From Mytilus edulis (taxonomy: Eukaryota), in NCBI RefSeq assembly GCF_963676685.1, contig NC_092350.1:57040001-57104000 (forward strand): a stretch of DNA of 64,000 nucleotides. Reading direction: 5' to 3'. The translations under genes and the position numbers were made by a program. Positions 9,920 through 59,516 of the stretch are shown here, in pieces. The notes under the pieces were generated by a model. It ran no database searches. It saw only the letters and a program-made list of their open reading frames with translations, and was not told where the DNA came from. The stretch's first letter is position 1. Each line of letters begins with the position of its first letter.

Positions 9920-10058
9920 TGTCTGTTTTACTTCTTACTTGAGGCTACACAAAAAGTTCATTATATTTTATGTTTCCGGAAAACGCACATTAGTAGGTAA
10001 AGAATATTTTTATGGTATAAGAGGGACGATCGTAAATCGCTGCAAATACCAACATTAA

Positions 10059-15930: not shown

Positions 15931-16049
15931 AAGTATAAATAGTACTTACAATTTTAGTCGCATAGAATCGAGCGCACCTCTGTTGTGTAAACAAATATCA
16001 GCTGCTTTTAAATCAATGAAAAGTACACACACTAATGTATGTCAAGGTA

Positions 16050-17970: not shown

Positions 17971-18091
17971 ATCAAAATATTTATGATAATTCTCTTTTTT
18001 AATAGGGACCAAATTAGATCGTACAGTAAAGGAGGCCATTAGAAATAGCGGCATCGAAGGTGACAGTTATCTTTATGAGCTTTATCCAAAA

Positions 18092-19016: not shown

Positions 19017-19865
19017 GTTTCATATTTGGGATCGTGTACCCTTTCTTTGTATATTTCTATCACGTTCGACGGGCTGTCGGCAAATTCATATTTGTGTTTT
19101 AGTTATATTTAGTTATGGAGTAGAGGCAATACTTGTATTTTCTCGCGGTTCGTATAGTAAAGCGGGGAAATATTGTATTGTTGTTACGTTTTCATAAATA
19201 TTCATAAGGCATGACAAAATTGACCATTCAGAAGACGAATTTTGTGTTACGATATATTGGTGTTTTTCAAGCGCTTCACTTTCTAGCCGTCGTTCAACAT
19301 AGTAAGCTCCGATTGCAATTAAAGTTGTTTTTTCTGATTTACTATTCGTATATGTATTTGCTAATTAAAAGTGTGGTCCGCCACTTTTATCCGGAGATAG
19401 GCTCGAGCATTGGCACGGATACAGGTTTCCATTCATATTCATATATCATGTGAACGATTGTTGGTTTTTCCTGGACGGCCTTGACTATCTATGAAGGGTA
19501 AACATTCAGAAATTTAAGCGAATACACTGTGGGCACATTGATATTTGAAATATTGTATATATATATATGTTTTAATAATTGTTAAAATGTGTACTGTTGG
19601 AAATTATTTGAGATACAAATTAAATACGGCGTCTATCACGTTCGACGGGCTGTCGGCAAATTTATATTTGTGTTTTAGTTATATTTAGTCATGGAGTAGA
19701 GGTAATACTATCTTTTTCATGTTTTTGTATGCATTATTTTTCACGCTATCGCTGTTTTCTTCTTTTTTTTCAGTACAAAAAAATGTTAGCATCTTTTAAT
19801 TTGTATTTTCCTAAACGTCTAAACGTCAGAAGAATAATAAATAATTATGGTATTATAATATAAAC

Positions 19866-22235: not shown

Positions 22236-23430
22236 GAAAAATCTAAATAATAAATAATGTCCAATTTTTATTTAAATTCACGTTATTAACACATCAAACA
22301 CTAAAATGATGGTTACAATATCATCACAAACCTAACATACACGCCACAGGTAATCTCTTTTTCACTGCAAATTACATGTGTTAGTGGGATCCCAATTATC
22401 CCGTAACATGGGACAGTATTCTGACAGTGATGCATCAGTACACCAAAAGTAGGAACCAAACAAATCAGTTAACAAAAAGGTTCAACAATGGTTTTTACGG
22501 TTTACTTTAACAAATCGTGACTTGGATAGAGAGTTGTCTCATTGGCACACATACCACATCTTCTTATATCTATAAACTCATCAGATGGCTTCAAATAGAA
22601 ATACCTATAACTAAAAAACATAGAGTGGAATTGGCCAGGTATTTGTGGATCCCAAAAGCAAAAATACACTTAGCCCACCAATCGGTAAGGGAGTTTTTCG
22701 GTGTGTTGGAGAATTATTGAAGGCCTTTTGTTGGTGTTCTTTGAACTTGTTGATCACTCTCTGACGCACTCCCTGTTTTCATGCTATTTTTAATCAATAC
22801 AACCTTCAATCGGGAGTTCACCTTTGCATGCGATTGGTACAGGTGAAAAACTGCGATTCGTATCTTGATCAGACGCATTTTTTAAAGCACCGAAACATGT
22901 ATCGAAACCACTGTGAATAGAGTGCTCAATATTGAAATTATGGGTTTAATTCAAATATGTACCCGTTTGCCAAACTAATCAGATACATTTATACCAGTGA
23001 TGTGAACAACTCTGAACTCTTGATTACCCGCAAAAAGTAGTTATCATATCTATGCTCTTGTGTATTACAAAAAAATAAAGTAACAAAAATATCAAAATTT
23101 CAAAGACAATTTAAAACACAAACTTTCTATCCAAAGGGCAAAACGATGTGCCCAAGCACATCAAACGAGTGCATGGAAAACTAAAAACATACAAATGTCT
23201 TGGTAATGTAGAAAATGGTGGTTTAAATCGGGTTTATAGCTAAAAATGGCCTTGTATTAAAAAACTTTAGTTCGAAAGAAATGAAAATATTGGCATTCAC
23301 ATCACAAAAAATAAATTTCATTTTTTATTATTTGAAATCATGTTTAACAAATACTACTTTTTACGATTCAACATCTCTTGGATCTGTCTCATCAAGGTTG
23401 ATAGTACTTGTAAATGGTGGATAGACATAC

Positions 23431-29380: not shown

Positions 29381-32099
29381 CAAGATTACAACGCAATTGA
29401 CATTTAACATATGGGCACATTAATTTATTCGTTTAGATGATCAGGCTTTGCGGTCAAACGACCTTCGTACGTTTTTTTTGTTGTTGACAAACTAGAAAAA
29501 TAAAAATAAAGAAGAATCCCCTATTTTTTTGGGTTAGTTGTCAAAATATTATTTGAATACATTTTTATGTTACATGTCAAAAAACCTGTCTTACTTCTTA
29601 TAACTAATAAAAAAAACACAGAAATAATAAAAAGTTTCATTATTTTTTTACTTTAAAAAAAAAAATGATTATTTACTGTTACACATTTGCTTAAAAAAAT
29701 CAATCTTTTATATGTTTTAGTTTAACTTCATCGATAAGTGTCAATCAAATAAAAAAATATCACGAAATGCACTGAAATGTGAGATTTCAAAATATTAGTA
29801 GTATACATACCTTTTGAATTTTAAAAAGTTGCAAGATATATCTTTTTTTTAGAAAGAAATTCATTATTTGTTTTCTTTATATAAAACATGTTTAAATACT
29901 GATACACGTCGGCCAGTCTTGGTGCAACAGTTCTTCAATCTGAATAAATATATTGTCAGTGAAAAGCTCAGCAGTTAGATGATATCATATATCTCCAATG
30001 TATCTTATTCGGTGTTAAATCGGTTTAGTTCTTCATTAACACATCTTTGTCACCCACCCCCCTTTTCGAAAAAAAATCAACATAAAGCTCATAATTTAGT
30101 GTGGAAAGAATGGTAGCAAAATTTTGTAATTCGAATATTTAAGCTTTGAACAGGTATCAAGTTATAAGGACTATTGAACATTTTTAGATATCAAGTACAT
30201 GGCTGGGATATTTCAATAGTTCGGATTTGCGTCTATGGCAGAATTGTTTTAATATATTTTTTTTAAATATCCTTCTTTGTGAAATGAACAATACAATTGT
30301 ACAATAAACAGCTTTCTAACAATAAAAAAACCAATACAAAGATCTTTTGAGGCAAATACAAAATGAAGAGGAACCTGCTTTTTATAACCAAATCAAAAAG
30401 AACAACTTCCTACTATGGCCGTAAAATGAAACTGGAAACGTCTTTGTCAAAAACAAAGGTAGACAACCTTACAAGTGTTTGCGATATCTTTTTAGACGTT
30501 TCATTTCTTGTCACAGTAGACAGTTTGACTTGGAATACATCTTTATCCATATAAACCAAACTGCTCCTCCGTCTTTGTCTCATTGTGTCACTTTAAACAG
30601 TAGTATTAAATCGCGGCCAATGGGTATACTGGAAACATTCTGCGATTTGCTGATCCAAATTCTGACGCATAATCGTTGGTTGGGCAGCAATGGTCAATTC
30701 CTGGCCACCAAGTTGGGCAGACATATTTGATTATTATTCAAATCATGTCATACATAAAAGCTCATAATTTAGTGTGGAAAGAATGGTAGCAAAATTTTGT
30801 AATTCGAATATTTAAGCTTTGAACAGGTATCAAGTTATAAGGACTATTGAAAATTTGTAGATATCAAGTATAAAGGCTGGGATATTTCAATAGTTCGGAT
30901 TTGCGTCTATGGCAGAATTTTTTTTATATATTTTTTTAAAATATCCTTCTTTGTGAAATGAACAATACAATTGTACAATAAACAGCTTTCTAACAATAAA
31001 AAACTCTAACTTGTAAAACATATTTGTATACACCGCAAGTATAGGGACACATTATACAATAGAATAAAGCATGCACAGAGTGGGAAGTATGTTTTTCTGG
31101 ATTTCGATTTTATAGTCCACGGCCATGGGTTGCAAAATTATTCAGTAGAAAGTAAGTCATATTTTGGATTCAACAAACGAGACCGATGATCGTATTTAAC
31201 TTCTTTAACTCTTGGAAATTATACAGTCCCAAGGGCTAACTTTACATCGTAATGCTTAGTAATTCTAGGAAGAATGTACGAGTTCATGGAAAAGTACGGA
31301 TACAAAATGCTATAATATAGTGCAATATTTAGAGTAAAATAATTCTTAATAGGGGTTCGCCCACGTCACTTAAAACAACTTGAATTAAGTATCTTTATTT
31401 TTTCATGGGTTGACCAACTTTTTGTTCCTACAAATATAATCAATTTAAAAAAAAGGAATAAAATACAACTGTCATATTCATCAGCTAGAACAGGCATTTA
31501 TAAGGAAGATGTAAGGGATTTTTTTTTATAACGACCTTAACCTTTATTTGTATGACATTTGTTCATAAAAATATTTATAAAACTATGTCCGCAATCCAAA
31601 TAGACACAATTGTCGTACGTGACCATAATCTCGATCCAGAAATCAAAGTTGTGTAGTTTGTACTTTGTAAATACAACTGTTACACAAAACACGCCTCCTT
31701 TTGGAGATATATGCTAATTATAATTTTTATAGTTTTCTTAACCTTCCGGTTCCAAGATATGATATCTATCTGTTCTCCTTGAACAAAATATTGGAATTCC
31801 ACCAGTGTGAACACACATGGATAGTGACCACATCTACATTTTATAAAGACCCAAAGTGAAAGCAATGAAAGAACAGAATTTTAGTTTAAGTTTTAACTCA
31901 AATAAATTAGAGAGATATACATTTTGAAAATATATTCCGCAATGTCCTATGTTTTAACTTTTTTTTAAATATAACTGCATATCAATTGTTCCGTCTATGG
32001 TATACACTTGAACGAAACTAAATAGTAAAGGTGGCACTGTTTGAGTCGAAAGAGGAGTTCCTTCTAGAGTTGTTCAAGTATGTGTAACATCTTTGATGC

Positions 32100-33560
32100 C
32101 ACTGTTTAAAAACACGCCATCATTTGCAAAAATCAGGTATTCGATGGATAAGGCGAAAAAATTTGATTATTCCCGGCGAAACATCAATTGTAACTGCAGA
32201 TGAGCAACTTTTTGGTAATGGCTAAGCAGACTCAGTGGGAATGGCCTGCTTTGTGTGAAGAAAATAAGTTTATCTTAATGTTTGGTGGATTGCACATTGT
32301 AATGACTTGTTATAAAATTCTGGGTGATATATTGCGTGATAGTGGATAGACAATGTGCTCTTACTGAAGCCGATATTGCAACATCTAGAACGGCAGACTC
32401 TTTTTATGTATGGTCAAATGTACAAAGGAATAGAAACGCGCATCAGATAACTGCATGTGTTTTGCTTGAATTGTTATTGTCGGCTTATGAAAGCTAAACG
32501 CAAAAAAATATAATTATGTCATGACTCTGTGACGTTCAATGATTTGATAGACTGGTGTAAGGAAAAAGAGTCACCTCGACTACAGTTTGATTCCTGGCGT
32601 TCAATTATCAATAAAGTTAGTATGCTCATTTCATGAGTCAGACTTTGTACTTTACAAACAGTCCATATAACTCATGATACGGTATTTTTTTTAGTTCGTG
32701 ATCGTGTAATTTATGCTTGATCGTTGCCGACCTATCTCAAGAGATATGGCATCCCTTCCAAACATTACCCAAAGGTTGCAATGGAATTTGAAAATGATAA
32801 TTTCACTGTACAAACGACCAGCAAATTTGTTTTCTTATAGCACAATTGATCAGGCACAAAAACAGAATAATGCAATTGTGAAGGGCGATGTTGGTGTCAT
32901 AGGTTTGACCAAAGATCCCTTTTAGACATTTGGATGGTAGCTGGACCAGGAGTCAGTAGACTAGAAGATGAATTTGAAAGATCTAGTGGTTTCTACAACA
33001 GATGAACGACATAATGAAGACTACGAAAATACGAACAGATATCTTTACAAATGCTTTGTAAAGTGGTGAACGAGTTTGGAAATCCATTTCTAGAAGAGTC
33101 GTCAGATTTGTTAAACAAGTTCCCCTATTAATGAAATTTTGGATTTGGGAGCCGGTAAGATATGTATATAAAATCCAAGATATTGGTCCGAACAATACAA
33201 AGATCTTTTGAAGCAAATACAAAATGAAGAAGAACCTGCTTTTTATAACCAAATCAAAAAGAACAACTTCCTACTATGACCGTAAAATGAAACTGGAAAC
33301 GTCTTTGTCAAAAACACAGGTAGACAACCTTACAAGTGTTTGCGATATTTTTTTAGACGTTTCATTTCTTGTCACAGTAGACAGTTTGACTTGGAATACA
33401 TCTTTATCCATATAAACCAAACTGCTCCTCCGTCTTTGTCTCATGGTGTCACTTTAAACAGTGGTATTCAATCGCTGCCAATGGGTATACTGGAAACATT
33501 CTGCGATTTGCTGATCCAAATTCTGACGCATAATCGTTGGTTGGGCAGCAATGGTCAATT
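32100..33560 (+). pseudogene. Academ-type transposase remnant (unit 1)
   Basis: Broken frames give PGETSIVTADEQLF, AKQTQWEWP..ENKFILMFGGLHIVM..KILGDILRDSG, TEADIATS.TADSF, RNAHQITACVL and IDQAQKQNNAIVKGDVGVIGLT, which I recognise as Academ(X) transposase motifs. Confidence 0.7.
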
Positions 33561-34974
33561 TCTGGCCACCAAGTTGGGCAGACATATTTGATTATTATTC
33601 AAATCATGTCATACATAAAAGCTCATAATTTAGTGTGGAAAGAATGGTAGCAAAATTTTGTAATTCGAATATTCAAGCTTTGAACAGGTATCAAGTTATA
33701 AGGACTATTGAAAATTTGTAGATATCAAGTATAAAGGCTGGGATATTTCAATAGTTCGGATTTGCGTCTATGGCAGAATTTTTTTTATATATTTTTTTAA
33801 AATATCCTTCTTTGTGAAATGAACAATACAATTGTACAATAAACAGCTTTCTAACAATAAAAAACTCTAACTTGTAAAACATATTTGTATACACCGCAAG
33901 TATAGGGACACATTATACAATAGAATAAAGCACGCACAGAGTGGGAAGTATGTTTTTCTGGATTTCGATTTTATAGTCCACGGCCATGGTTTGCAAAATT
34001 ATTCAGTAGAAAGTAAGTCATATTTTGGATTTAACAAACGAGACCGATGATCGTATTTAACTTCTTTAACTCTTGGAAATTATACAGTCCCAAGGGCTAA
34101 CTTTACATCGTAATGCTTAGTAATTCTAGGAAGAATGTACGAGTTCATGGAAAAGTACGGGTACAAAATGCTATAATATAGTGCAATATTTAGAGTAAAA
34201 TAATCATTAATAGGAGTTCGCCCACGTCACTTAAAACAACTTGAATTAAGTATCTTTATTTTTTCATGGGTTGTATCCCATCGAAATAACCAACTTTTTG
34301 TTCCTACAAATATAATCAATTTAAAAAGAAAGGAATAAAATACAACTGTCATATTCATCAGCTAGAACAGGCATTTATAAGGAAGATGTAAGGGATTTTT
34401 TTTATAACGACCTTAACCTTTATTTGTATGACATTTGTTCATAAAAATATTTATAAAACTATGTCCGCAATCCAAATAGACACAATTGTCGTACGTGACC
34501 ATAATCTCGATCCAGAAATCAAAGTTGTGTAATTTGTACTTTGTAAATACAACTGTTACACAAAACACGCCTCCTTTTGGAGATATATGCTAATTATGAT
34601 TTTTATAGTTTTCTTAACCTTCCGGTTCCAAGATATGATATCTATCTTTTCTCCTTGAACAAAATATTGGAATTCCACCAGTGTGAACACACATGGATAG
34701 TGACCACATCTACATTTTATAAAGACCCAAAGTGAAAGCAATGAAAGAACAGAATTTTAGTTTAAGTTTTAACTCAAATAAATTAGAGAGATATACATTT
34801 TGAAAATATATTCCGCAATGTCCTATGTTTTAACTTTTTTTTAAATATAACTGCATATCAATTGTTCCGTCTATGGTATACTATTGGACGAAACTAAATA
34901 GTAAAGGTGACACTGTTTGAGTCGAAAGAGGAGTTCCTTCTAGAGTTGTTCAAGTAAGTGTAACATCTTTGATG

Positions 34975-36435
34975 CCACTGTTTAAAAACACGCCATCATT
35001 TGCAAAAATCAGGTATTCGATGGATAAGGCGAAAAAATTTGATTATTCCCGGCGAAACATCAATTGTAACTGCAGATGAGCAACTTTTTGGTAATGGCTA
35101 AGCAGACTCAGTGGGAATGGCCTGCTTTGTGTGAAGAAAATAAGTTTATCTTAATGTTTGGTGGATTGCACATTGTAATGACTTGTTATAAAATTCTGGG
35201 TGATATATTGCGTGATAGTGGATAGACAATGTGCTCTCACTGAAGCCGATATTGCAATATCTAGAACGGCAGACTCTTTTTATGTATGGTCAAATGTACA
35301 AAGGACTAGAAACGCGCATCAGATAACTGCATGTGTTTTGCTTGAATTGTTATTGTCGGCTAATGAAAGCTAAACGCAAAAAATATAATTATGTCATGAC
35401 TCTGTGACGTTCAATGATTTGATAGACTGGTGTAAGGAAAAAGAGTCACCTCGACTACAGTTTGATTCCTGGCGTTCAATTATCAATAAAGTTAGTATGC
35501 TCATTTCATGAGTCCGACTTTGTACTTTACAAACAGTCCATATAACTCATGATACGGTATTTTTTTTAGTTCGTGATCGTGTAATTTATGCTTGATCGTT
35601 GCCGACCTATCTCAAGAGATATGGCATCCCTTCCAAACATTACCCAAAGGTGGCAATGGAATTTGAAAATGATAATTTCACTGTACAAACGACCAGCAAA
35701 TTTGTTTTCTTATAGCACAATTGATCAGGCACAAAAACAGAATAATGCAATTGTGAAGGGCGATGTTGGTGTCATAGGTTTGACCAAAGATCCCTTTTAG
35801 ACATTTGGATGGTAGCTGGACCAGGAGTCAGTAGACTAGAAGATGAATTTGAAAGATCTAGTGGTTTCTACAACAGATGAACGACATAATGAAGACTACG
35901 AAAATACGAACAGATATCTTTACAAATGCTTTGTAAAGTGGTGAACGAGTTTGGAAATCCATTTCTAGAAGAGTCGTCAGATTTGTTAAACAAGTTCCCC
36001 TATTAATGAAATTTTGGATTTGGGAGCCGGTAAGATATGTATATAAAATCCAAGATATTGGTCCGAACAATACAAAGATCTTTTGAAGCAAATACAAAAT
36101 GAAGAAGAACCTGCTTTTTATAACCAAATCAAAAAGAACAACTTCCTACTATGACCGTAAAATGAAACTGGAAACGTCTTTGTCAAAAACAAAGGTAGAC
36201 AACCTTACAAGTGTTTGCGATATTTTTTTAGACGTTTCATTTCTTGTCACAGTAGACAGTTTGACTTGGAATACATCTTTATCCATATAAACCAAACTGC
36301 TCCTCCGTCTTTGTCTCATGGTGTCACTTTAAACAGTGGTATTAAATCGCTGCCAATGGGTATACTGGAAACATTCTGCGATTTGCTGATCCAAATTCTG
36401 ACGCATAATCGTTGGTTGGGCAGCAATGGTCAATT
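34975..36435 (+). pseudogene. Academ-type transposase remnant (unit 2)
   Basis: Near-identical to unit 1, with the same disabling lesions. Confidence 0.7.
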
Positions 36436-36785
36436 CCTGGCCACCAAGTTGGGCAGACATATTTGATTATTATTCAAATCATGTCATATATAAAAGCTCA
36501 TAATTTAGTGTGGAAAGAATGGTAGCAAAATTTTGTAATTCGAATATCTAAGCTTTGAACAGGTATCAAGTTATAAGGACTATTGATTTTTTTTAGATAT
36601 CAAGTATAAAGGCTGGGATATTTCAATAGTTCCTGTTCTGATATGTCGCGCATCAAGGATCTAACGAAATTCGATAGACAGGTCAAATCTGGTGACCTAA
36701 GTTCACAAACTTTATATTTGAATAACATTAATTTTTCATCCAATCAGAATCCATCTCTTAAACGAGTTTCGGAACATCATTCAAA

Positions 36786-40638: not shown

Positions 40639-42676
40639 GTGTATTGTCCAACCTGGATGATGATCATGAACACAATTTCATATACCAAATATTGTTTACC
40701 TACTGTACATGTATGGGTCTATGAAACAGCACAAACCCTGAAAATTATGTCAACGTTACATGACTGCCAGCTAGACATGTACACCTTACAATCATTCTAT
40801 ACACAAAATATAGTTTACCAATATAAGCAATCAATAAACCATGAAACTGGAATCAAGGACAACCAACATGTGAAGTGTAAAATAAAACTTTGATATTATA
40901 AGTTATCATATCATATCAATTGAGTGCTAACAGCTTTATACCAAGGACTGATGCCAATCATTACAATGTCTGCAGAAAGTTTAAGCAAGAAAGCAAAATA
41001 AAAGTTAACACTAACATTCGTATAAAAAAGTTGTTGTAAGTGTACAATGGTGCATCACAGGTGTGGATCACGCAGACGTATAAATGGAACATGTGGCCTG
41101 TGGCGGTAAATCATGGATGACAATCCTTCAAAACAATTGTCATATGGATTTCTGTCGACAACAAGTGCTTTGCATTTAAATGTGCGTCCTGGTTTATTTT
41201 CCAGCACATTTAGTTCTTGCAAGTCTTTCATTACCTTCAATACATCTTCTTTGTATGATGGCAGTGATGACACCCTTTCCTTTGATGGATTTCAGTAATT
41301 GCATCAAAGTGCTTAGTAATGTCTATAACGATTGGATATTCTTTGGAATGTGCAATAATACTCTACACTGTTTGGTGTCCAGAGCAAGCTACCTTACTAT
41401 CCCTATTGAGCATTTCAACAAATTCATCCAATGCAATATTGTTATTTTTCCCTCCTTGCAAGTTTATAAACCTATTATTAATCAAACTTTCTTCCTGATC
41501 TGGTGGCAGTAATCCTGAGGTTAGAGCAGTCAGGTGTATTGAACCAATAGAGTATTTCGTTTTATTTGTTTTGTTGTAAACTGGGAGTTCATATTTTGCA
41601 GATCGGACTGACCTTCCTCCATTGCCCATGTCAACAGCTGAGTCCAAATTTTTGGGCAGTAACACAAGTTTAAACAACAAAGCAATGTAGTCTTGAACTC
41701 TATCTTTGTCTTTCGGTTTAACTGTCTTACTTTTCCTTTCAGCTGGAAGGTTATGAACTTTGCTTTCATGTGACTTAAGAGATCCAAGGTATGCATCAGA
41801 TTTCGGACAGAAGTGACATTTAATGCGTCCATTTTCTAGGTTAGCTAGCCAATAGTTCACTGGGTGATCCCTATCAAAAACTACTTCACGTAAATTCTGA
41901 CATATATCAGTTGTGTCCTCAAAAAAAACATTGTTGGATTAATATGCTACAAATGTCATTAATCCATGCTTTTTTTTCATCTTTTGTTTTATGCTGGAAG
42001 TTTTCTGGAAGAACTTTCTCCGTTTCTGTCATTTTTAAATGGTCCAAAAAAAGAAGTAGGCAGATTGCATCTAAAATGGTATAGTACAGCAGTTTGAAAG
42101 GACGGGATGCATTCTTTACTTTTCCTTTAACATTTCTCATATTATTTAAAAGATTTCTGTAGTAGTGCATTGTGCCCTTGTCACTTGCACTTTCGGTGTT
42201 ATATGTCAGTTTGTATATAGCCTGAAAATACAAATAACAAGATGTTGAAATGTTGACAACAAACTCTCAATACATTTGAAAACAACTGCTGACATTTGAC
42301 ATTTGTGGGTTTTTTATATTGCGTTTTTTTAATACTGTATTATATTTTCTAAATAAAAAGTTCCTTTTAAAACATGTAATCTGTGGTCTAAATTCACAGT
42401 TGAGACATTGTGAAAAACATGTGGATCTAATGTCAAAACAGCCCTATGAGGATCACTCAGTGGCCAAGAGGTCTAGCCTATCAACACTAAGTTTGTTCTT
42501 GGCACACTCATAGGTTATTCAACAATAACATCTGGTTGTCATTAAAAACAAATAGTGTGAACAAAATCAATCAATTTATTAAAACAGATTTTACTGACTG
42601 CATTTAAGCAATGTGTGGACATATGGTGGAAACTTGTCTCGGTTGTAATCATACCACATCTCCGTTAAATAGTTAT

Positions 42677-46978: not shown

Positions 46979-47977
46979 ATGTTTTAGATTTTAACGAGAG
47001 AAATTTATGTATTACTGAAAAATTATTACACCAGGGTTTTCGATATCACAAACTAGTCAAAACATTTACTAAATTTTATCATCGGTATAAAGACATTATT
47101 CGTAAATATAGCTCAACTTGCAGACTTTTTATACATTCGGGTATTTCACATCCAATTTTTTATGGAAATATTCTTTATAAAGCTCAAAGGTGTCAGTATT
47201 CACCTCAGAAACTTACAAAACCTTTGAATAGACTTATTAAGAAGGGATATAATTACGATACTGTTGTCAAGTCATTAAAGATTGCATATTTTGGCGTTAA
47301 TATTGAGTCACTGATAAGGTCTTTGCGTCGGAACTAAACACATTTATTCTAAAAACAGTTGTTGGCATGACACGGGTTATGTTCTTCTCATATATGTTAT
47401 GATGGTATGATACTAAACCCCTAACGGGAAGGATTGTGCCTGATGTTCATATGATGAAATCATAATCTTTCAGTCAGTTTAATTGAAGTCTGGAGCTGGC
47501 ATGTCAGTTAACTGCTAGTAGTCTGTTGTTATTTATGTATTATTGTCATTTTGTTTATTTTCTTTGGTTACATCTTCTGACATCAGACTCGGACTTCTCT
47601 TGAACTGAATTTTAATGTGCGTATTGTTATGCGTTTACTTTTCTACATTGGTTAGAGGTATAGGGGGAGGATTGAGATCTCACAAACATGTTTAACCCCG
47701 CCGTATTTTTGCGCCTGTCCCAAGTCAGGAGCCTCTGGCCTTTGTTAGTCTTGTACTATTTTAATTTTAGTTTCTTGTGTACAATTTGGAAATTAGTATG
47801 GCGTTCATTATCACTGAACTAGTATATATTTGTTTAGGGGCCAGCTGAAGGACGCCTCCTGGTGCGGGAATTTATCGCTACATTGAAGACCTGTTGGTGA
47901 CCTTCTGCTGTTGTTTTTTTATTTGGTCGGGTTGTTGTCTCTTTGACACATTCCCCATTTCCATTCTCAATTTTATT
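46979..47977 (+). mobile_element. 5'-truncated Naiad-type Penelope-like copy inserted in the transposase gene
   Basis: Reverse complement of ~476-1474; encodes VLDFNERNLCITEKLL...SLIRSLRRN*. Confidence 0.88.
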
Positions 47978-49087
47978 TATATACATGTATATCATTGTAC
48001 AGGATGATAAAGATAGTATGTCAAAAAGTAAGTTAACATATATACCATGTATACATGTACAGTTCGAGTTGTATGTACTTTTAAATGTCATTATGACATT
48101 CTTTCATCTGGGACTGCTTCGGTAAAGTCAGAAATGTTTTCGTAATTTAAGTCCCAGGGTTAAATGAAATCAATAACATATATGATAAAAGTTCTCATAA
48201 TGCATGTACCAAATATACTGGTATTGTACATGTACATGTTGTACACATCATGCACATGTACAAACAGGAATGTATTTATGTTTTAAAGCAAACAATTTTC
48301 TTATGAAGGCTATATTTGAGGGGTTGGACATGGGGTTCCCCGATTACAAATATAGCATATTTTTTTAGCACAGGTTTAAAGAACTTATGTACCTGGCATG
48401 TACTTCTCCTTCCAGTTCCCTCATTTCCATGTTCACTTCACATGTTTACACCTAGTCCAAATAATTATGACTTCTGGAAAGACTATTTTTGCTTTGACGA
48501 CTTCATGCGACGATGTAAGGCGTAAAAAAAAATATAATAGCTTTTCAAGATGTCATAATTATTTGGACTAGTTTACACCCACACATATCTTATATTTATC
48601 TTTGAACCTACCAGAGGAAAGACTTGTATCATATTCTGTTGGTCTGGGCACAATAGCTACAAACTGCTTGACTATAGTAGCTGGTTCATGTGGTTGAGTA
48701 ACACCTGCACCCATCAATGGCATCGTACACATAGCGCTAAATGAAAGGAATTTTAACTGCATGTTTCACAATTACTTGAGATGGAAATGTTTTCTGCTGT
48801 TTCTGTTTGACAGATGAGAATGGGGACCTGAGAAGTCTTTTCTCTACCGTTTTTAATCTCTTTGGACAGGTCTGATGGGTTCGAATTAAAGATGATTTTT
48901 ATTTTCTACTTCTTCTTCTTGCCGAAAAACCTTCTCCACGATTTTGTAACATTTTGTGCAAAATCCATTATTTTTATCCTCGTCTGTAACATCGAAAGAC
49001 GGTATTATATGGAAAGCCTCAGCTGTCATATATTAGAGATTTACAAAACTTTATGCTGAAGCTTAAAATGTAAAGTTAAGACAGCGT

Positions 49088-50530
49088 GATGTTGAATTAA
49101 GTCATCAAAATGCTAACTCTGAATTACAATATGCTAAGTTGAATCTGCGCAATGTTGACTTGCAATGACAAGTGCTGTAGTCGTGATAGTATAATGATAA
49201 ATCACGATGTTGTGATGATATGCCGAACACACGTTACGTTGAGTTTAAAGTAAATGATGTGAAGTTGACGTTGCATGATGTTAGCTTGCAGATTGATAAT
49301 GCTCAGTAATCCACTTCGATTGCTATGATAACAAATAAATTGAACAGCTACAATGTATGGTGCTGACTTGATATTAATAAATGTTTAGCTGAAATAGTAC
49401 GATGTTATCTCATTGTGATATTGCGATAGGTCTATCATGCAATCTGTTGATTTAAAACACCATGATGTACAGTTGAAAGTACATGATGTTAGGTTAAGAT
49501 AACACGATGCTACACAACAATATTGAAACGAAAGGCCCACCATACAATGTGTTGACTTAAAACAACACGATGCAGCGTTGAAAGTACATGATGTTAAGCT
49601 AAGATGACATGTTGGTTTATCAGTATAATGTCGCGATGGGCTTACCATACAATATGCTCACTCGAAACTACAAGACGTACAGTTGAAATTTTGTAATGTT
49701 ACGCTATGATAGCATGATGTTATATCAATTTAATGTGACGATGGGCTTACCATCACTATGCTCACTCGAAACTACAAGACGTACAGTTGAAATTTTGTAA
49801 TGTTAAGCTAAGATTGCATGCTATTAAATCAATATAATGTCACGCTAGGCTTATTACACGATATGCTCATTTAAAACTACACAACGTACAGTTGAAAGTA
49901 TGTGATGATAAGCTATGATAGAATGTTGTTATGTCATTTGAATGTCACGATAGGCTTACCATACACTATGCTCATTTAAAACTACACAACGTACAGTTAA
50001 AAGTATGTGCTATTGAGCTATGATAGCACGATGTTATATCATAATAATACCACGATAGGCTTGCCATACGATATGCTCATTTAAAACTTCATGACGTACA
50101 GTTGAAAGTATGTGATGTTGAGCTATGATAGCACGATGTTATATCATAATAATACCACGATAGGCTTGCCATACAATATGCTCATTCAAAACTTCATGAC
50201 GTACAGTTGAAAGTATGTGATGTTGAGCTATGATAGCACGATGTTATATCATAATAATGTCACGATAGGCTGGCCATACAATATGCCCATTCAAAACTAC
50301 ACGACGCACAGTTGAAAGTACGTGTTGTTGAGCTACGATAGCACGATGTTATATCATAATAATATCACGAAAGGCAAGCCATACAATATTACCATTCAAA
50401 ACTACACGACGTACAGTTGAAAGTACGTGTTGTTGAGCTAAGATAGAACGATGTTATATCATTATGACGTCACGAGAGGATTATCATACAATGTGTTGAC
50501 TTGAAACTACACGATGTAAATTTGAAGTAG
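49088..50530 (+). repeat. 21-bp-periodic array with 105-bp higher-order units (left arm)
   Basis: NATGYT core every 21 bp from 49088; tt/ggccatac recurs at 50061, 50166 and 50271 (105-bp period). Confidence 0.85.
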
Positions 50531-51841
50531 TTTGGTCTTGACTTGAAACAGTAAAATGTTAAGTTATAAAAACAGAACGTTAAGTCAAAATAAAACAATG
50601 ATAGGATGATATATACCTGTGCAGAATTGAAGTTATTTGGTGTTGTCTTCGAATAAAGTGCAAATGTTAGATCGTTTTGATGTTAAATTTAAAGACAATA
50701 ATGATGCTTAAAACATTACAGAATTACATGTATGTGAATTGAAACTGCAATTCTATGGAAAAGAATGAGGAAAAAATCCGCAGGATTTTTCTTCTTCATT
50801 TGCAAGTTGATGAATATTGATAACATTTTACTCAAGAGGCAAAAGGATATTCAAAAAAAGTTTTTCCATGTTTTCTTAGTCGGATTTATTTTTTATGATT
50901 CAAACCCAGTTTTTTTTTACGAACAATATTTTAGAAAATATTTAATTATCTATGTTGAGTGTTGATATATGCAACATAGTGTTGTCGCTTTATACGACTT
51001 ATGACTGTAAGGATCAAATTTCTACTCATATAAAATCACATCTATTAAAAGTTATCAGATAATTTGTATCTACCACTCCCCTTTTCCGCGAAATAAAACG
51101 TAGGACTTGGAGGATCAGATCTATATGAGAATGTGACCCCCGGGCCTTGATAGAGGTATCTGAAAATTTGAATGTTCTTTTCCCCGAAATAAAACAATAG
51201 AATCTGGACTTTATCAAAACCGATGCGAATACGATTTCCATAGAATGTCAGAGACGGTTTGTCGACTAGTTTGTTTAAAATTCGGCTGGTCAAGCAAAGT
51301 ATGACTTGTAACAAAGCAGTTTTTTTTTCATATTCATATCACATGTTCTCGTCCTGATATGCATGTAATATTTGCCACTGTACGTAAAGCGCACTCTTTT
51401 CCCCTAAATAAAACCATAAAAGAATGATTAATCAAAACCGATGCTATTTGAATGTCCATAGATTGTCATAGACGGTTTGTCAACTAGTTTGTTAAAAATT
51501 CGGCTAAGCAAGCAAAATATGTCTTGTACAGAGCCAATTAAGATTTATTCATATTCGTATCACACTTACACACTCTCGTCCTTATATGCATGTTATATTT
51601 GTCACTGTACACAAAACACAAATACATTATTATCATTTTTTTTTGTGTGTAAATGAGCCACATCTACCTATACCTATTTTGAGCACGTTTATAGATTGAA
51701 CACCCTGTAATTCATGTTTATTGGAGTTCCTCGAAAATTAAACACATTTCTTCTTTATTTGCAAAATCGCCAAGTGACGGGTGCCAACTACGAAACAGGA
51801 TCTGCTAACCCTTCTGGAGAATCTGAGGTAGACCTTTTTTA

Positions 51842-52125
51842 GGGAGCTACCATTTGATTATTATAGGGGGGGCTAGGATGAAATTTGAAAAAAATAGGCA
51901 GGACAGGAGTTTTGAGTAAAAAAAAAAAGGCAGGATGAGACACTTGCAAAAAAAAAAAGTCAGGATGACAATTATTGTAAAAAAAGTCAGGATAAACTAA
52001 AAAAAAAAAAACAGGACCGGATAGAGTGAAAAATAAAAAGGCAGGACAGAGATTACAACTAAAAAAAAATGCAGGACAAAATTTTTCATCCTAGCCCCCC
52101 CCATAAAAATCAAATGGTAGCTCCC
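51842..52125. mobile_element. PIF/Harbinger-like MITE
   Basis: TTA|GGGAGCTACCATTTGATT ... AATCAAATGGTAGCTCCC|TTA; internal repeats of (A)n-G(G/T)CAGGA. Confidence 0.8.
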
Positions 52126-52434
52126 TTAGTGTTCCGTGTTGCTCAGTCTTTGGTTTTTTATGTCGCGCTTAATATACTGTTGTTTGGCTTTTGATCTTCT
52201 TTCTAAGGTTTATTTCGGCTGATGAGTTTTTGTCATAACATTGTCAGTTTGGTTAAGAGTTTTATTATTCCTTTTGTATCTTTCGACTTCTTTGTCCAAT
52301 GATTTGTGTGTATTTCTATTCGTTTCTTTTCGATTCTCCCCTCCCCTGAACAGTATAATAGATAGATAATTGAAAACGGAAACCCTTTTCAGAAAAGGAG
52401 ATATACAAGTCACTCGACGTGACTGTTTTTTTTT

Positions 52435-52647
52435 NNNNNNNNNNNNNNNNNNNNNNNNNNNNNNNNNNNNNNNNNNNNNNNNNNNNNNNNNNNNNNNNNN
52501 NNNNNNNNNNNNNNNNNNNNNNNNNNNNNNNNNNNNNNNNNNNNNNNNNNNNNNNNNNNNNNNNNNNNNNNNNNNNNNNNNNNNNNNNNNNNNNNNNNNN
52601 NNNNNNNNNNNNNNNNNNNNNNNNNNNNNNNNNNNNNNNNNNNNNNN
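52435..52647. other. Assembly gap (N run)
   Basis: 213 consecutive N. Confidence 0.99.
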
Positions 52648-53071
52648 CTACAATCTAATCAAAGCAATACCAAAATAATTTTTGCAGTTTATCAAATTTT
52701 ACAGATTTTTTGATTTTTTCTTTTCATTGAAAACACATATAAATAGAGAGAAGCTGTAAAGAACCAAGAAACTTACTATGTACAAGAACATGTGTGACGG
52801 AAATCATTTATTTGCTTCTTATTATAAGTTGTAGGGAGGCATTGTCCATTAATGGATTTACAAATAAAAAATAAATAATTCCCCGAGTGGATATATTGAT
52901 AAACCTGGGCACTACATCTTATTTGGTGCTGGAATAATGGTTGAAACTGCTGTCAATGATGGGTTTTTTTTTAGAAAGTTGACGATTTAGACTGGAGGCT
53001 CTATGTCAAATTTCATTAGGTTTCATAGACTTCATGTAGGAGTGAAAAGTAAACAACAGAATCTAACATAA

Positions 53072-53370
53072 TTTGTGTGTTTTTGGTTGGCCCCATACAG
53101 TAGGATACTTCCACCTATCGATTCATCCGTATAGATACATTCAAATTTTCTAGATTATTATTCAATTAAAAAATTTCATTATATTGTTTGGTGTTGGGTT
53201 TTTTTTTTAGGGGTGTTTTATTTGTGTGTTTGGGTTGGCCCCATACAGTAGGATACTTCCACCTATCGATTCATCCGTATAGATACATTCGAATTTTCTA
53301 GATTATTATTCAATTAAAAAAAATCTTTATATTGTTTGGTGTTGGGTTTTTTTTTTGGAGGGGTGTTTTA
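53072..53370. repeat. Two-copy tandem duplication of ~149 bp
   Basis: ggttggccccatacagtaggatacttccacctatcgattcatccgtatagatacattc occurs twice in tandem. Confidence 0.9.
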
Positions 53371-53986
53371 CAGTTCTACTCTTTAGCGCATCATTTATCA
53401 GATCTGTTGGGTTTTATTTTTAGATTAAGTCCATATTATTTTCTTTTATTTTTGAGTAAGGGGGTTGTATTAACTAAAATTATCTGATAACTCTGACACA
53501 GATGTGGAGCTATAAGCTTAAACTTTGGTAGATCCTTTCCCACTGAGAGCATTTGAATTTTGTACGAGGAGATAACACAGATTAAGGCATAAGACTTTGT
53601 ATTTCCTGTCAATTAAACATATTTTTTTCATCGTGTAAAATGAATTTATACGAGCGAAAAAATAAATAATCACATGAGTATTATTATAAAAAGCCGTTTA
53701 ATCTTTACAAAAATTAAGAGTTAAAAAGCTCATTATGTATATTCTGTATGAATAAACGGGAATATGGGTTATGCGTAACTGAGACAGCAATTCAACGTCG
53801 ATTTTTTTTTTATCAAAATGCATAGTGAGGGTGACACACTTAACAGAATTCATCAAAGAATTGTCATTAAATTCGAATTCTTAAAAATTGACGAAAAACA
53901 TAAGTTATCGCCTTCGGCTCAGGGGATATAAACTCTAAGCCGGGAATGTCACAGTATATACCCTGTCTGAGACCTGAATAACACAT

Positions 53987-54430
53987 ATATTACGGATTAC
54001 CCCTGACTTAATGTTATTTTCCAGTGCAAGTATTTGTTGACAACACATATATGTTGAAAAACCCAACCTGATATGTTCGGCATACGTTCAGGATTTTCTG
54101 ATTTGCTGTGAACATAATTTTATAGTGTATGTAATAATTTATAATAACACTTTTAGCATTAAATTTAAGTATTAAAAAAGTGTAAATTGCGTGATTTTGT
54201 ATTAAAAATGTATTTTTGACTAACGCACGTCATTATTTTCCCTCTGTGAGCCTCTGACAGACCCATAGCTTTTGACTACGTCACATAGTAACCAGTGTTA
54301 TGATGACGTTTTTGAGGTTCCAATTGGGGATAAAAACGTCGTATATACCCCGGCAGTTTCCCGAATATATACTGACATCTCTGTGTTGTTATCCAATCAC
54401 AAACCTCGACACATTTGTAATCCGTAATAT
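53987..54430. mobile_element. Possible small non-autonomous element with short TIRs in a TA context
   Basis: ATATTACGGATTAC ... GTAATCCGTAATAT perfect 14-bp inverted repeat. Confidence 0.45.
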
Positions 54431-54939
54431 ATATATATATTAACACAAAACATAGATAAATATTTTCTTAAATATTGTTCATAAAAAAAAGTCTGGGTTT
54501 TAATCATAAAAAAAATTCCAAACTAAACATGTAAAAAATCCGGCAAAACTGTACTTAAGTGTGTCTATATAGCGATCAATATTTGTTTTGCTTTATGGAT
54601 TTATGGAGAACTTTCTTTGTATATCCTTTTGCTTTTTGAGTTAAATTTCATTAATATTCATCTACTTTCAAATAAAGAAGAAAAAATCCTGGGGATTTGT
54701 CCCTCATTCTTTTCCATAGAATTGCAGTTTCAATTCACACAATTCTTTAATGTTTTAAGCATCATTATTGTCTTTCAATTTAACATAAAAACGATCTAAC
54801 ATTTGCACTATATTCGAAGACAACACCAAATAACTTCAATTCTGCACAGGTATATATCATCCTATCATTGTTTTATTTTGACTTAACGTTCTGTTTTTAT
54901 AACTTAACATTTTACTGTTTCAAGTCAAGACCAAACTAC

Positions 54940-56272
54940 TTCAAATTTACATCGTGTCGTTTCAAGTCAACACATTGTATGATAATCCTCTCGTGACGTC
55001 ATAATGATATATCATCGTGCTATCTTAGCTCAGCAACACATACTTTCAACTGTACGTCGTGTAGTTTTGAATGCGCATATTGTATGGCCAGCCTATCGTG
55101 ACATTATTATGATTTTACATCGTGCTATCATAGCTCAACATCACATACTTTCAACTAAACGTAATGAAGTTTTGAATGAGCATATTGTATGGCAAGCCTA
55201 TCATGGTATTATTATGATATAACATCGTGCTATCATAGCTCAACATTACATTCTTTTAACTGTACGTTGTGTAGTTTTAAATGAGCATATATATATATAT
55301 AGTGTATGGTAAGCCTATCGTGACATTCAAATGACATAACAACATTCTATCATAGCTTATCATCACATACTTTCAACTGTACGTTGTGTAGTTTTAAATG
55401 AGCATTGTGTATGGTAAGCCTATCGTGACATTCAAATGACATAACAACATTCTATCATAGATTATCATCACATACTTTCAGCTGAACGTTGTGTAGTTTT
55501 AAATGAGCATATCGTGAGGTAAGCCTAGCGTGACATTAAATTGATATAATAGCATGCAATCTTAGCTTAACATTGCAACATTTCAACTGTACGTCTTGTA
55601 GTTTCGAGTGAGCATATTGTATGGTAAGTCCATCGTCACATTAAATTGATATAACATCATGCTATCATAGCTTAACATTACAAAATTTCAACTGTACGTC
55701 TTGTAGTTTCGAGTGAGCATATTGTATGGTAAGCCCATCGTGACATTATACTGATAAACCATTATGATCATGTACTTTCAACGTTGCAACGTGTTGTTTT
55801 AAGTCAACACATTGTATGGTGGGCCTTTTGTTTCAATATAGTTGTGTAGCATCGTGTTATCTTAACCTAACATCATGTACTTTCAACTGTACATCATGGT
55901 GTTTTAAATCAACAGATTGCATGATAGACCTATCGCAATATCACAATAAGATAACATCGTACTATTTCAGCTAAACATTTATTAATAACAAGTCAGCACC
56001 ATACATTGTAGCTGTTCAATTTATTTGTTATCATAGCAATCGAAGTGGATTACTGAGCATTATACATCTGCAAGCCAACATCATGCAACGTCAACTTCAC
56101 ATCATTTACTTTAAACTCAACGTAACGTTTGTTCGGCATATCATCACAACATCATGACTTATCATTATACTATCACGACTACAGCACTTGTCATTGCAAG
56201 TCAACATTGTGCAGATTCAACTTAGCATATTGTAATTCAGAGTTAGCATTTTGATGACTCAATTCAACATCA
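54940..56272 (-). repeat. Inverted copy of the 21/105-bp array (right arm)
   Basis: Reverse complement of the left array, with unit-number differences and a (TA)n expansion near 55288-55301. Confidence 0.85.
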
Positions 56273-56807
56273 CGCTGTCTTTACTTTACATTTTAAGATT
56301 CAGCATAGAGTTTTGTAAATCTCTAATATATGACAGCTGAGGCTTTCCATAGTATTATTTTTTTCACATTGTTCACTCTTACATCTGTCAAGCGAAGTTT
56401 ATGTTTGAAAAGTTTTACCTCATGTTTTTCACCGGTAGATGATATTTCAGTGTGAACAAACGAAAATGCACACAACAAACACACATTTTGACCATCTTAA
56501 ACACGTCGAGGTGTTAAAACACTTTCAGTTGCCATCATTACAGTTCATTTATAAATCGATGCGTGTTTTCACTGGGCGCAGCCATTTTCCAATATTTTTA
56601 TTTATTTCCATTCGAGTATGCTTGGATTAGAACTATTAATTACAACCGGAAAAATCGAAAGGACTAAAAATGCCAAAGAGAGACGATTTCTGATTGGTTG
56701 GCTCGATAGGTCACCAGATTTGACCTGTCTATCGAGTTTCGTTAGATCCTTGATGCGCGACATATCAGAACAGGAGCAATTAAAGGATTTAATTTTAATT
56801 AGATTGT

Positions 56808-56948
56808 AAAAAACTCGAACTTGTAAAACATATTTGTATACACCGCAAGTATAGGGACACATTATACAATAGAATAAAGCACGCACAGTAGTGGGAAGTA
56901 TGTTTTTCTGGATTTCGATTTTATAGTCAACGGCCATGGGGTCCGTGT
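56808..56948 (+). repeat. Continuation of the AcademX-derived unit to the right of the AcademH-like element
   Basis: aaaaactc.aacttgtaaaacatatttgtatacaccgcaag...cggccatggg matches 30999-31129 and 33860-33990. Confidence 0.9.
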
Positions 56949-57453
56949 AACACTTATCAATTCAAAGTTTTAAAAAGTTTTGAAATTTTAGATTTTTAGA
57001 ATTTTGATCAAAGTTTTAAAATATCAAAATTTCAAATCGTGTTAAAGTTTTGAAATTTTGAAATTTTAACCAAATTATTAAAATATTAAAATTCTAAATA
57101 TCGTTGATAAATTTGATAGTTTAGGAATTTAACCAAACTTTTAAAATACTTTTTCCTGAGGTAGAAAAGTCTTAGTATTTCAACAATTCAAAGTGATTGT
57201 TCAACACCACAAGTTTGTATATACTGGTTGTCATTTGATGTCCTCTTTTTAATAGTTCGTTTTTTTACCATGCATTAAGCTTTAACATTTCTTATTAGAA
57301 ATACTAATAGTTCGTCTTGCCGTATTCTATATAGCGTTATACATAGTTACATTGTTGACAGTCAGTTGTAAGATCATCCCCGTCCTCCGATTGATAAATA
57401 ATACATTTATCTTTTATCTATACAATAATAATGAGAGTTATGTCGATTGTATA

Positions 57454-57670: not shown

Positions 57671-58365
57671 TATCTGATTGCATATATACCAGATTACATG
57701 CAGGGTATCCTAAATTTCAATATTTTGATAGATTTTTTTTCGATTAATTTGATTATCTATGATATAATGATGAATGATTTTTAAATCTCTAGCGGCACAT
57801 TGAAAGCAGATGCACGACAAGGACAAGATAAGAGTACATGCATATTAGCCGTATTAAATACTAAACCTACTCATTTAAACTGAATGTAAACATGATATGT
57901 TGCAATGCAATGTCAAGATATCTGGACACATCATTCCGACTCTGAGCCGATAATTGTTTCTATCTACTTCTTTATTTGGCGTTCTTAAACAAATAAGCAA
58001 AAAAAAACGGATTTTAAAGTCTTTGGTTTTAACAAACGACCGCTCGCATTCGATGCGAACACGCTACCGTTGCAGCCCTTATTATGTTTAAGATTTCTCA
58101 AATACGCATATTGTGTTTTTCCTTACAGAGTCCAGTGAAACTCAATGTGCGTTAAACAAGAAAAGTAACAAGTTATATTTCTTTATTAATTGACTTATTG
58201 TTTTTAACTTGTCATACATATCAAGTAAAAAAAGTTCTTCAGCTTGTCGCCTGCAATTTGATTAAATGGCTCTGTAACAGTTGGCCCTTAAGTTGATCAT
58301 TGTGAAGTTGACCCTGGTGAATCTAGTTCTGGTCAAACAGGCACTGGTACAGTTGGCCCTACAGT

Positions 58366-59516
58366 TTACCATTGTGAAGTTGGTCCTGTGGTAACTAGTT
58401 CTGAGACAAAACCCACTGGTGTTGGCCCTGCAGTTTGCCCTGCAGTTGGCCCTGGTGGAGTTGTCTCTGGTGAAGTTAGTTCTGGGTAATAACCCACTGG
58501 TGTTGGCCCTGCAGTTGGCCATGATGGTGTTCGGGCTGATGTAACTAGTGCTGAGACAAAACCCACTGTAAAATACAGGTACATAAATATTACAATAACT
58601 TTAAGGTAACAAAATAGTACTGAATATTAAAAGTAGATTTCAAGTACTGCAGATTTTTGGTACAGAAATAGTACCTATGCAAAAGGAGCTGTGTTTCAAC
58701 CAACGCGGACAGTTCGATACTGTTCACACAATTCGCTTGCGTTCAACTATGATCCTCTGATTTATTCAATTAATGTTCAGAATGTATTTTTTTTAATTTT
58801 CACTTGTACACATCAACGACATACTGAACTCTTTTAAAAGGTACCGAAAATAAAGAATTGAATGCAAGATAATTGCCCGAACAGTACTGACTTGATATAA
58901 TGTTGAATCGGTGTTTTTCATTTCGAATTCTTCTCAATCCACGAAAATTGGTATCCACGAAAACAAATGAATCCACAGTATTCGTTCTTCCTAGGTATTG
59001 CTCACTGAAAAGTCACGTAATGCAAGTAATAACAAGTACAATGAATTCTACATTTTGTAACATTTTTTTGGCAGCCTGATTAAGATATGCTAACATTTAA
59101 AGACAGCAGTCATTTATTTGTGATTATTACTTTTTTAGAAAATAAAACTGCTTAAATTTTAAAAGAAATCTTGTCATATTTATATGTCTTCGTCGAAGCA
59201 TGTGATGGATATCTCAATCCTAAAATGGAATAAACGCGTGTCGAAGGTTTTACTAAAACCTACGGGTCGAGAAAAAAAACGTGTATATGTCCATGCAATT
59301 TATGCATTATATAATACTCATACCGAAATATATAAAGAAACGTAATGTGGTCCATGTAATACTGATGTAAAATCACCATAAGTAATACAAATGTAACCGA
59401 AATAAGAATCAACAAAAAAAGGTAAATATTGAAGATATTTAGCAGGGTTATGATGTTTTCTTACCTTCAACGAACAGTAATACTAGGCATACACATAAAC
59501 AAACATAAATCTTCAT
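58366..59516 (-). CDS. Secreted Pro/Thr/Gly-rich repetitive peptide (83 aa) with CRP-I-like signal exon; may be a pseudogene
   Basis: Exons 59516-59465 (MKIYVCLCVCLVLLFVE, G|GTAAG) and 58565-58366 (VGFVSALVTSARTPSWPTAGPTPVGYYPELTSPETTPPGPTAGQTAGPTPVGFVSELVTTGPTSQW*). Repeats continue past the stop with further stops; AATAAA near 58187. Confidence 0.6.

What the first reader, a model, noticed from the sequence alone, without database searches (positions are those of the whole stretch)
49088..50530. Helically phased 21-bp array with conserved core and variable spacers, crystallising into a 105-bp higher-order repeat
Seen: from 49088 units such as gatgttgaattaagtcatcaa / aatgctaactctgaattacaa / tatgctaagttgaatctgcgc / aatgttgacttgcaatgacaa keep exact 21-bp spacing and a NATGYT core, while the other 15 bases differ freely. 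Further in, five subunits (21+21+21+24+18) form a 105-bp unit. 21 bp is two helical turns and 105 bp is ten. Inference: length and phase rather than sequence are conserved, which suggests a same-face array of transposase-binding sites or a DNA-wrapping scaffold. A relic heptad-repeat ORF is the alternative, but frames contain many stops.
Basis: partly seen in the sequence, partly recalled or inferred. Interest (0 to 1): 0.7.

Follow-up and report, generated by a model that had tools for sequence, protein, structure and literature searches.

The report
Phased repeats in mussel transposon arms
The repeat is part of the two mirror-image arms of a gene-less jumping element in a mussel genome; related elements keep the same 21-base spacing (two DNA turns) while the repeat's letters change, so the units are likely docking sites for a transposase borrowed from a relative.

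Summary
The 21-bp period and the 105-bp higher-order repeat are real. The array fills most of the left 1.96-kb terminal inverted repeat of a 7.3-kb non-autonomous DNA transposon (49008-56351). It has TATGG...CCATA ends, a 6-bp target duplication, an inverted twin array and an empty allele in other individuals: IS3EU-type. The 105-mer is 5x21, not 21+21+21+24+18. Fourteen of 16 transposase-bearing IS3EU families with a mapped end have subterminal periods near 21, 42 or 63 bp. All seven in the clade with the most similar ends have 21, while their unit sequences match mostly near chance. Two subfamilies differ at 102 of 470 sites with no indel. A relic ORF is rejected. Best reading: phased transposase-binding sites (untested); that clade's transposase has a predicted SAM domain plus tandem HTHs. 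No cognate transposase copy was found. The scan reported phased IS3EU arrays before, in other genomes (e1-9856915, e1-9184004). My literature searches found none.

The parts
49002..49007 (+). Left target-site duplication (GTATTA)
   Evidence: Identical to 56352-56357; empty alleles carry one copy
49008..56351 (.). Non-autonomous IS3EU-type DNA transposon, 7,344 bp, subfamily S1
   Evidence: Inverted arms; 47 exact termini in G000, control 0; no transposase remnant by tblastn at E<1e-3
49008..50970 (+). Left terminal inverted repeat (about 1.96 kb)
   Evidence: Aligns to 54435-56351 at 1732 of 1829 columns
49008..49027 (+). Terminal motif, TATGG type; 17 of 20 bases equal to the end of autonomous family L140, 18 of 20 to non-autonomous family L163
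   Evidence: counts made by eye on the printed 20-mers
49067..49393 (+). Outer array of diverged 21-bp units (about 46% pairwise identity), with one -2 slip at about 49319-49358
49394..50526 (+). 105-bp higher-order repeat = 5 x 21, 10.8 copies
50527..50660 (+). Inner decayed 21-bp units in the same register
   Evidence: Profile peaks to 50639; lag 21 z=3.3 in 50530-50870
50971..54434 (.). Non-coding interior shared with other S1 copies; holds the N stretch 52435-52647
51842..52125 (.). Nested small MITE with short inverted ends and a TTA duplication, absent from copy L021
   Evidence: Sequence; alignment of L021 jumps 51842 to 52128
54435..56351 (-). Right terminal inverted repeat, with the twin 21/105-bp array at about 54800-56292
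56352..56357 (+). Right target-site duplication (GTATTA)

Best explanation
The array lies inside the long inverted arms of a gene-less IS3EU-type DNA transposon, and its 21-bp units are likely head-to-tail, helically phased docking sites for a transposase supplied by a related element. Shown: the element, its ends, the 6-bp duplication, the empty allele, the period, and the same period at the ends of related transposase-bearing families. Inferred: each unit binds one transposase through its tandem HTH domains; spacing at two helical turns puts successive protomers on one face, so they load cooperatively and pair the two ends; selection during transposition removes indels but tolerates substitutions outside an about 11-bp core; occasional duplication of five diverged units, then unequal exchange, made the 105-bp repeat. 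Many weak sites may let a non-autonomous element compete for a transposase it does not encode.
For: Element; TSD 6/6 in 14 of 22 paired copies, 5/6 in 3. Left flank joined directly to right flank in contigs of 3 of 4 DNA runs laid (loose ends of 112, 31 and 23 letters). TA..TA/TAYGG ends and 6-bp TSDs define IS3EU (PMC10045372, PMC12730594, passages). Period: 14 of 16 transposase-bearing families with a mapped end have best lag in 20-22/41-44/62-65 (13 with z>=4), against 16 of 43 background array clusters (Fisher p=0.003) or 5 of 32 after removing clusters recognised as IS3EU ends (p=2e-6). Seven families with period 21 form one transposase clade (100/98). Higher-order periods of 42, 63 and 105 recur in non-autonomous relatives. 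102 substitutions and 0 indels between subfamilies: P=0.002 at the indel rate of all 52 arms. The clade transposase has DDE (PF24764 E 3.6e-72) and HTH matches, and its model matches IstA, TnsB and MuA. IstA binds direct repeats 23 bp apart with tandem HTHs and needs two (PMC10122671, passages). TnsB site spacing shows about 10-bp periodicity (PMC10201428, passages). Galileo's THAP domain binds tandem repeats in long TIRs (PMC3688188, passages).
Against: No binding data. No autonomous element with this family's own arms was found (one search scored only 150 of 421 candidates). The unit is only weakly similar to clade units: p=0.012-0.57 for seven autonomous families, and two out-of-clade families score as well (L135 0.009, L112 0.011). 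With only the 34 cleanest arms the no-indel result is not significant (P=0.13). A -2 slip is fixed in both subfamilies. Periods of 19, 20, 22 and 24 also occur, and L119 has no such array. The lag set was fixed, families are related, and 12 of 28 transposase loci had no mapped end and were left out. Copy L043 is 256 bp, has a perfect TSD and keeps only a few units, so a long array may be dispensable; it could also be a later deletion.
Confidence: 0.65

Rival explanations
1. The array is a neutral minisatellite inherited from an ancestral 21-mer; whole-unit slippage and unequal exchange keep the length without selection, and only the terminal 30 bp matter.
For: Copy number of the 105-mer varies widely between arms (0-12 anchors in the first 4.5 kb). 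A 256-bp copy with few units has a perfect TSD. The no-indel test is not significant on the filtered set.
Against: Outer units are only 46% alike, so they are not being homogenised, yet 17 of 19 keep 21 bp (expected 11.0 or 5.3; P=0.003 or 3e-8 under a simple star model). Periods of 20-22 occur on both sides of a transposase split of about 25% identity.
Confidence: 0.17
2. The phased units shape or wrap DNA, or bind a host protein (nucleosomes, an architectural or transcription factor), rather than the transposase.
For: 105 bp is ten turns. Unit sequence differs between sister families with similar transposases (L137 against L151: 11 of 21), which a structural role would allow.
Against: No 10-11-bp autocorrelation in the outer array (z -0.2) and only lag 11 z=3.5 in the 105-bp part. 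AA/TT/TA power is 21.1 at 20.9 bp against 6.0 at 10.5. The arrays start 30-100 bp from each tip and point inward, as transposase sites do.
Confidence: 0.13
3. The array is the relic of a heptad-repeat (beta-solenoid-like) protein gene captured in the arms.
For: One frame reads like an alternating hydrophobic heptad, and the two subfamilies have their stops at different places; S2 frame 0 has 1.28 stops per 35 codons against 2.41 shuffled.
Against: Subfamily differences by codon position 26/31/29 (p=0.80); pN/pS 0.62 in that frame, 0.58-0.94 in the other five. S1 frame 0 has 2.76 stops against 2.53 shuffled, and an S2 reverse frame is as open (1.21). A -2 frameshift predates the subfamily split. 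All 150 listed of 159 genome matches have open frames of at most 172 aa. One borderline hit (E 7.9e-4) among 1.84 billion representatives. Any 21-bp repeat yields heptads, e.g. L139.
Confidence: 0.03

Closest known systems
IS3EU/GingerRoot DNA transposons (PMC10045372, PMC12730594, PMC6839031, PMC11934779; passages read)
   Same: TA..TA and TAYGG..CCRTA ends, 6-bp TSD, integrase-type DDE transposase in relatives
   Different: Arms are about 2 kb (GingerRoot: 100-150 bp) and filled with a phased 21/105-bp array; no coding capacity; the passages seen mention no subterminal array
Foldback-like elements: Galileo (PMC3688188), Tm1 (PMC3169594), passages read; Drosophila FB (recalled: 31-bp units in a 155-bp higher-order repeat; one search found no paper)
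   Same: Long, internally repetitive arms with variable unit number; in Galileo the repeats hold transposase sites
   Different: Other transposase superfamilies (P, Mutator), other TSD lengths; no clade-wide fixed two-turn period reported in the passages seen
Tandem end sites of IS21 IstA (PMC10122671), Tn7-like TnsB (PMC10201428) and phage Mu (22-bp sites recalled)
   Same: Direct repeats about two turns apart read by tandem HTH domains of an integrase-fold DDE transposase; activity depends on helical spacing; the clade transposase model matches these folds
   Different: Two to four sites per end there, about 75 units per arm here; eukaryotic; the transposase clade carries an N-terminal SAM-like domain; binding untested here

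Membership tests
IS3EU/GingerRoot | TA..TA termini, TAYGG..CCRTA | tested here: met
   TATGG at 49008, CCATA at 56351; definition
IS3EU/GingerRoot | 6-bp target-site duplication | tested here: met
   14 of 22 paired copies 6/6, 3 more 5/6; single copy in empty alleles
IS3EU/GingerRoot (autonomous) | Encodes an integrase-type DDE transposase | tested here: not met
   No tblastn hit in the window or 40 family loci; the element is non-autonomous
IS3EU/GingerRoot (non-autonomous) | Ends shared with transposase-bearing relatives | tested here: met
   Pattern TAYGGAANGCCNNARCTGYC: 1,116 ends, control 0; includes intact PF24764 elements with 6-bp TSDs
IS3EU/GingerRoot (non-autonomous) | Mobilised by an identified cognate transposase | tested here: inconclusive
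   No autonomous element with these arms found; one search scored 150 of 421 candidates
Foldback-like architecture | Long internally repetitive TIRs with variable unit number | tested here: met
Galileo (P) or Tm1 (Mutator) families | P or MULE transposase and 7- to 9-bp TSD (9 bp for Tm1; 7 bp for Galileo recalled) | tested here: not met
   TSD is 6 bp
Polinton/Maverick | Protein-primed polymerase, integrase and capsid genes inside 6-bp-TSD elements (recalled) | tested here: not met
   No such ORFs in the window element or copies; long ORFs read by eye as nested retroelements
Tandem transposase-binding sites (IS21, Tn7, Mu type) | Direct repeats near both ends, pointing inward, about two turns apart | tested here: met
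Tandem transposase-binding sites (IS21, Tn7, Mu type) | Sequence-specific binding and spacing-dependent activity | not testable with these tools
   Needs footprinting and excision assays
Coding heptad repeat | Open frame with codon-position bias and protein homologues | tested here: not met
Satellite DNA | Long tandem blocks independent of a mobile element | tested here: inconclusive
   Matches inspected lie in or beside this family's arms; searches give lower bounds; one block of about 2.2 kb inside a copy

The most novel reading that the evidence does not exclude
One IS3EU clade builds a transposase filament on its ends: an N-terminal SAM domain (predicted fold Z 9.2 to tankyrase SAM; found in six of the seven strict-21 families, weakly in the seventh, and in no other family tested) polymerises protomers head-to-tail along sites fixed at two helical turns. 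Non-autonomous parasites then lengthen the track into 42-, 63- and 105-bp higher-order repeats to out-compete their donors, seeding satellite-like DNA whose unit length is set by a protein footprint.
Probability: 0.2. Interest if true: 0.78.

Novelty: new variant of a known kind. Interest (0 to 1): 0.5.

Why it matters
IS3EU transposons are widespread, but their structure and function are called 'largely unexplored' (PMC11934779, passage). The comparison here gives a concrete, testable model of how they recognise their ends, with intact donor transposases and a natural series of arrays from 96% to 50% internal identity in one genome. It also offers a mechanistic origin for higher-order satellite-like repeats whose length is quantised in 21-bp steps. 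The general idea (repeated transposase sites in long arms) is known from Galileo, IS21 and Tn7, which caps the surprise.

Tried and rejected
Relic ORF: rejected; I first favoured it because stops differ between subfamilies. 24+18 split: rejected; 2 of the 42 units in the profile used were still in that wrong register. Assembly artefact around the N stretch: rejected, since arms differ by 5% and junction and empty-site contigs exist in other runs. A hand count of 15 of 21 between this unit and L151's was not confirmed: computed 11 of 21 and 13 of 21. Shared motif with families L103 and L112: weak (z about 2). Rfam: 0 matches in 48500-57000. ESM Atlas gave no result. SAM self-association was not predicted. 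The L050 zinc-finger-like ORF lies in a nested insertion, not in the family. Literature searches without a relevant hit. Supplements and Repbase entries were not seen and may describe such arrays.

Full report
Observation. The quoted units are at the stated place. Autocorrelation against 300 dinucleotide shuffles peaks at 21 and its multiples in the outer part (lag 21 z=5.9) and at 105 in the inner part (z=34.8); lags 10 and 11 are flat in the outer part. A profile walk finds units from 49067 to about 50660. The core spans about positions 1-11 of the unit; NATGYT itself is in 6 of 13 outer units. The 105-mer is five 21-mers, not 21+21+21+24+18. The register slips by 2 at about 49319-49358 in both subfamilies and by 1 near 49754 in this arm only.

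Context. The array has an inverted twin. Arms 49008-50970 and 54435-56351 match at 1732 of 1829 columns, begin TATGG, and are flanked by GTATTA on both sides. The genome (1.37 Gb; the closest named transposase homologues are Mytilus) holds 47 exact copies of the 22-bp end, control 0. Of 22 paired elements, 14 have a perfect 6-bp duplication, 3 have 5 of 6, and 5 have 4 or fewer. Contigs from 3 of 4 DNA runs join the left flank to the right flank (loose ends of 112, 31 and 23 letters), and run X5 bridges both filled junctions, so the insertion is polymorphic. These ends and TSD define IS3EU/GingerRoot (PMC10045372 and PMC12730594, passages). Neither the window nor 40 family loci hold a transposase remnant; long ORFs in copies read by eye as nested retroelements. 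The element is non-autonomous.

Within the family. Two subfamilies exist. Their majority sequences differ at 102 of the first 470 sites with no indel. Private decay gives 46 indels under 50 bp per 901 substitutions over all 52 arms, and 58 per 481 in an interior control of 12 copies, so P(0) is 0.002 or 5e-7. Using only the 34 cleanest arms it is 0.13. Private indels are of random length. Of 214 spacings between 105-bp anchors, 175 are 105 and 6 are 210; the first anchor lies 84 bp (4 x 21) apart between subfamilies. Outer units are 46% alike, yet 17 of 19 keep 21 bp (expected 11.0 or 5.3 under a simple star model).

Coding test. One frame looks like a heptad protein and stops differ between subfamilies. 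But differences are even across codon positions (26/31/29, p=0.80), pN/pS is like that of the other frames, stop density is near shuffled in S1, and a stop-free 69-aa stretch finds one borderline hit among 1.84 billion representatives. Homogeneous 21-bp arrays of relatives give heptad ORFs too.

Across IS3EU families. PF24764 gave 151 matches from 150 of 421 candidates scored. I mapped an end for 16 transposase-bearing families; 12 of the 28 loci in the tree had no mapped end and were left out. Best lag in bases 30-400 falls in 20-22, 41-44 or 62-65 for 14 of 16 (13 with z>=4); L119 (25, z 3.1) and L162 (24) are exceptions. In 1.10 Mb of fetched DNA, 16 of 43 array clusters away from mapped ends fall in that set; 11 of them I recognised as further IS3EU-type ends, leaving 5 of 32 (Fisher p=0.003 strict, 2e-6 cleaned). 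Of 600 random windows, 76 were periodic and 30 of these were in the set, many overlapping such ends. The set was chosen after and families are related, so the p-values are generous. Seven families with period 21 form one transposase clade (100/98). Six share the end pattern that also fits this element; the pattern has 1,116 matches, control 0. Non-autonomous relatives show diverged 21-mers and 42- and 63-bp higher-order repeats. Unit sequences match each other at 9-15 of 21, mostly near chance; similarity of our profile to clade units is modest and not exclusive. Period is kept; sequence largely is not.

The likely binder. Clade transposases have DDE and HTH matches. Models (pLDDT 84.6 and 87.3) match retroviral integrases, IstA, TnsB and MuA. 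Residues 1-63 of the full-length protein fold as a SAM domain (Z 9.2, rmsd 2.6, 61 aligned to tankyrase SAM; E 2.4e-4). A profile of it finds six of the seven strict-21 families strongly, L147 weakly, and no other family among 31 loci; it was built from this clade, so remote SAMs could be missed. Arrays of 20-22 bp also occur in families without it. Earlier scan notes tie this SAM to a SAM-bearing ligase partner; I did not test that.

Mechanism. Shown: element, ends, duplication, empty allele, period, clade-wide period, domain content of relatives. Inferred: units are transposase sites at two-turn spacing, as with IstA repeats 23 bp apart (PMC10122671, passages) and spacing-sensitive TnsB sites (PMC10201428, passages); long arms multiply them as in Galileo (PMC3688188, passages). 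I put this at 0.65, neutral inheritance at 0.17, a wrapping or host-factor role at 0.13 and a relic ORF at 0.03. Against it: no binding data, no cognate donor found, a fixed -2 slip, and a 256-bp copy with few units and a perfect TSD.

Novelty. Repeated transposase sites in long arms are a known kind. A fixed 21-bp period across IS3EU families, with higher-order repeats in steps of 21, did not appear in my searches or in passages of PMC6839031, PMC11934779, PMC10853768 and PMC3169594. I saw passages only, no supplements and no Repbase entries. The scan noted phased IS3EU arrays before in other genomes; I consulted those notes after reaching my reading. Verdict: new variant of a known kind, interest 0.5.

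Noticed in passing
L103-L105, L106-L108, L109-L111 (G000 C7:42.31 Mb, C10:17.51 Mb, C14:19.45 Mb); also L112-L115: IS3EU elements of about 20 kb with inverted arms over 5 kb (99.6-99.96% alike), each arm holding the transposase ORF (1308 of 1308 bases identical in one element), flanked by 6-bp TSDs; six such inverted pairs of one family, plus a 27-kb case of another family. Composite-like architecture.
   Followed up: partly
L119:3773-4480: F-box plus leucine-rich-repeat ORF upstream of an IS3EU transposase, present in two copies examined.
   Followed up: partly
L137, L140, L145, L146, L151, L154 N-terminal exons: SAM-like domain at the start of one IS3EU transposase clade.
   Followed up: partly
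L179:248-2235: Non-autonomous IS3EU relative with a 63-bp (3 x 21) higher-order repeat in both arms.
   Followed up: partly
L144:about 7955-9250; L131:about 3070; L155:about 9670: Further TATGG-ended MITEs with their own 21-bp arrays; L144 has a 6-bp TSD. Transposase-bearing copies L127 and L131 sit directly beside the AGATATCT-type array, perhaps a target preference.
   Followed up: partly
G000 C12:48924898-48927060 (in L031/L032): About 2.2 kb of the 105-bp repeat inside one family copy, a satellite-like expansion.
   Followed up: no
L043:194-449: 256-bp miniature of the family with both ends and a perfect TSD.
   Followed up: partly
window 15827-22251: Broken, partly duplicated element with RT-RNase H, Dam-like and tyrosine-recombinase matches (DIRS-like by recall); 16888-19133 repeats at 19866-22111, 97%.
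   Followed up: no
window 30332-36632: Tandem duplication with a period of about 2.86 kb, 98%.
   Followed up: no
window 476-1473 and 46979-47977: Inverted copies of a 1-kb repeat (97.6%) overlapping ORFs of 253 and 187 aa with no clear Pfam match.
   Followed up: no
window 58262-58600 (- strand): Open frame of 112 aa over 72/81-bp tandem repeats, probably a Pro/Thr-rich host exon.
   Followed up: no
window 10055-10776; 41363-41938: A 720-bp palindromic element and a DUF6589 fragment (E 7e-13).
   Followed up: no
window 48525-48571: Very high-copy short palindromic repeat, also seen in RNA reads.
   Followed up: no
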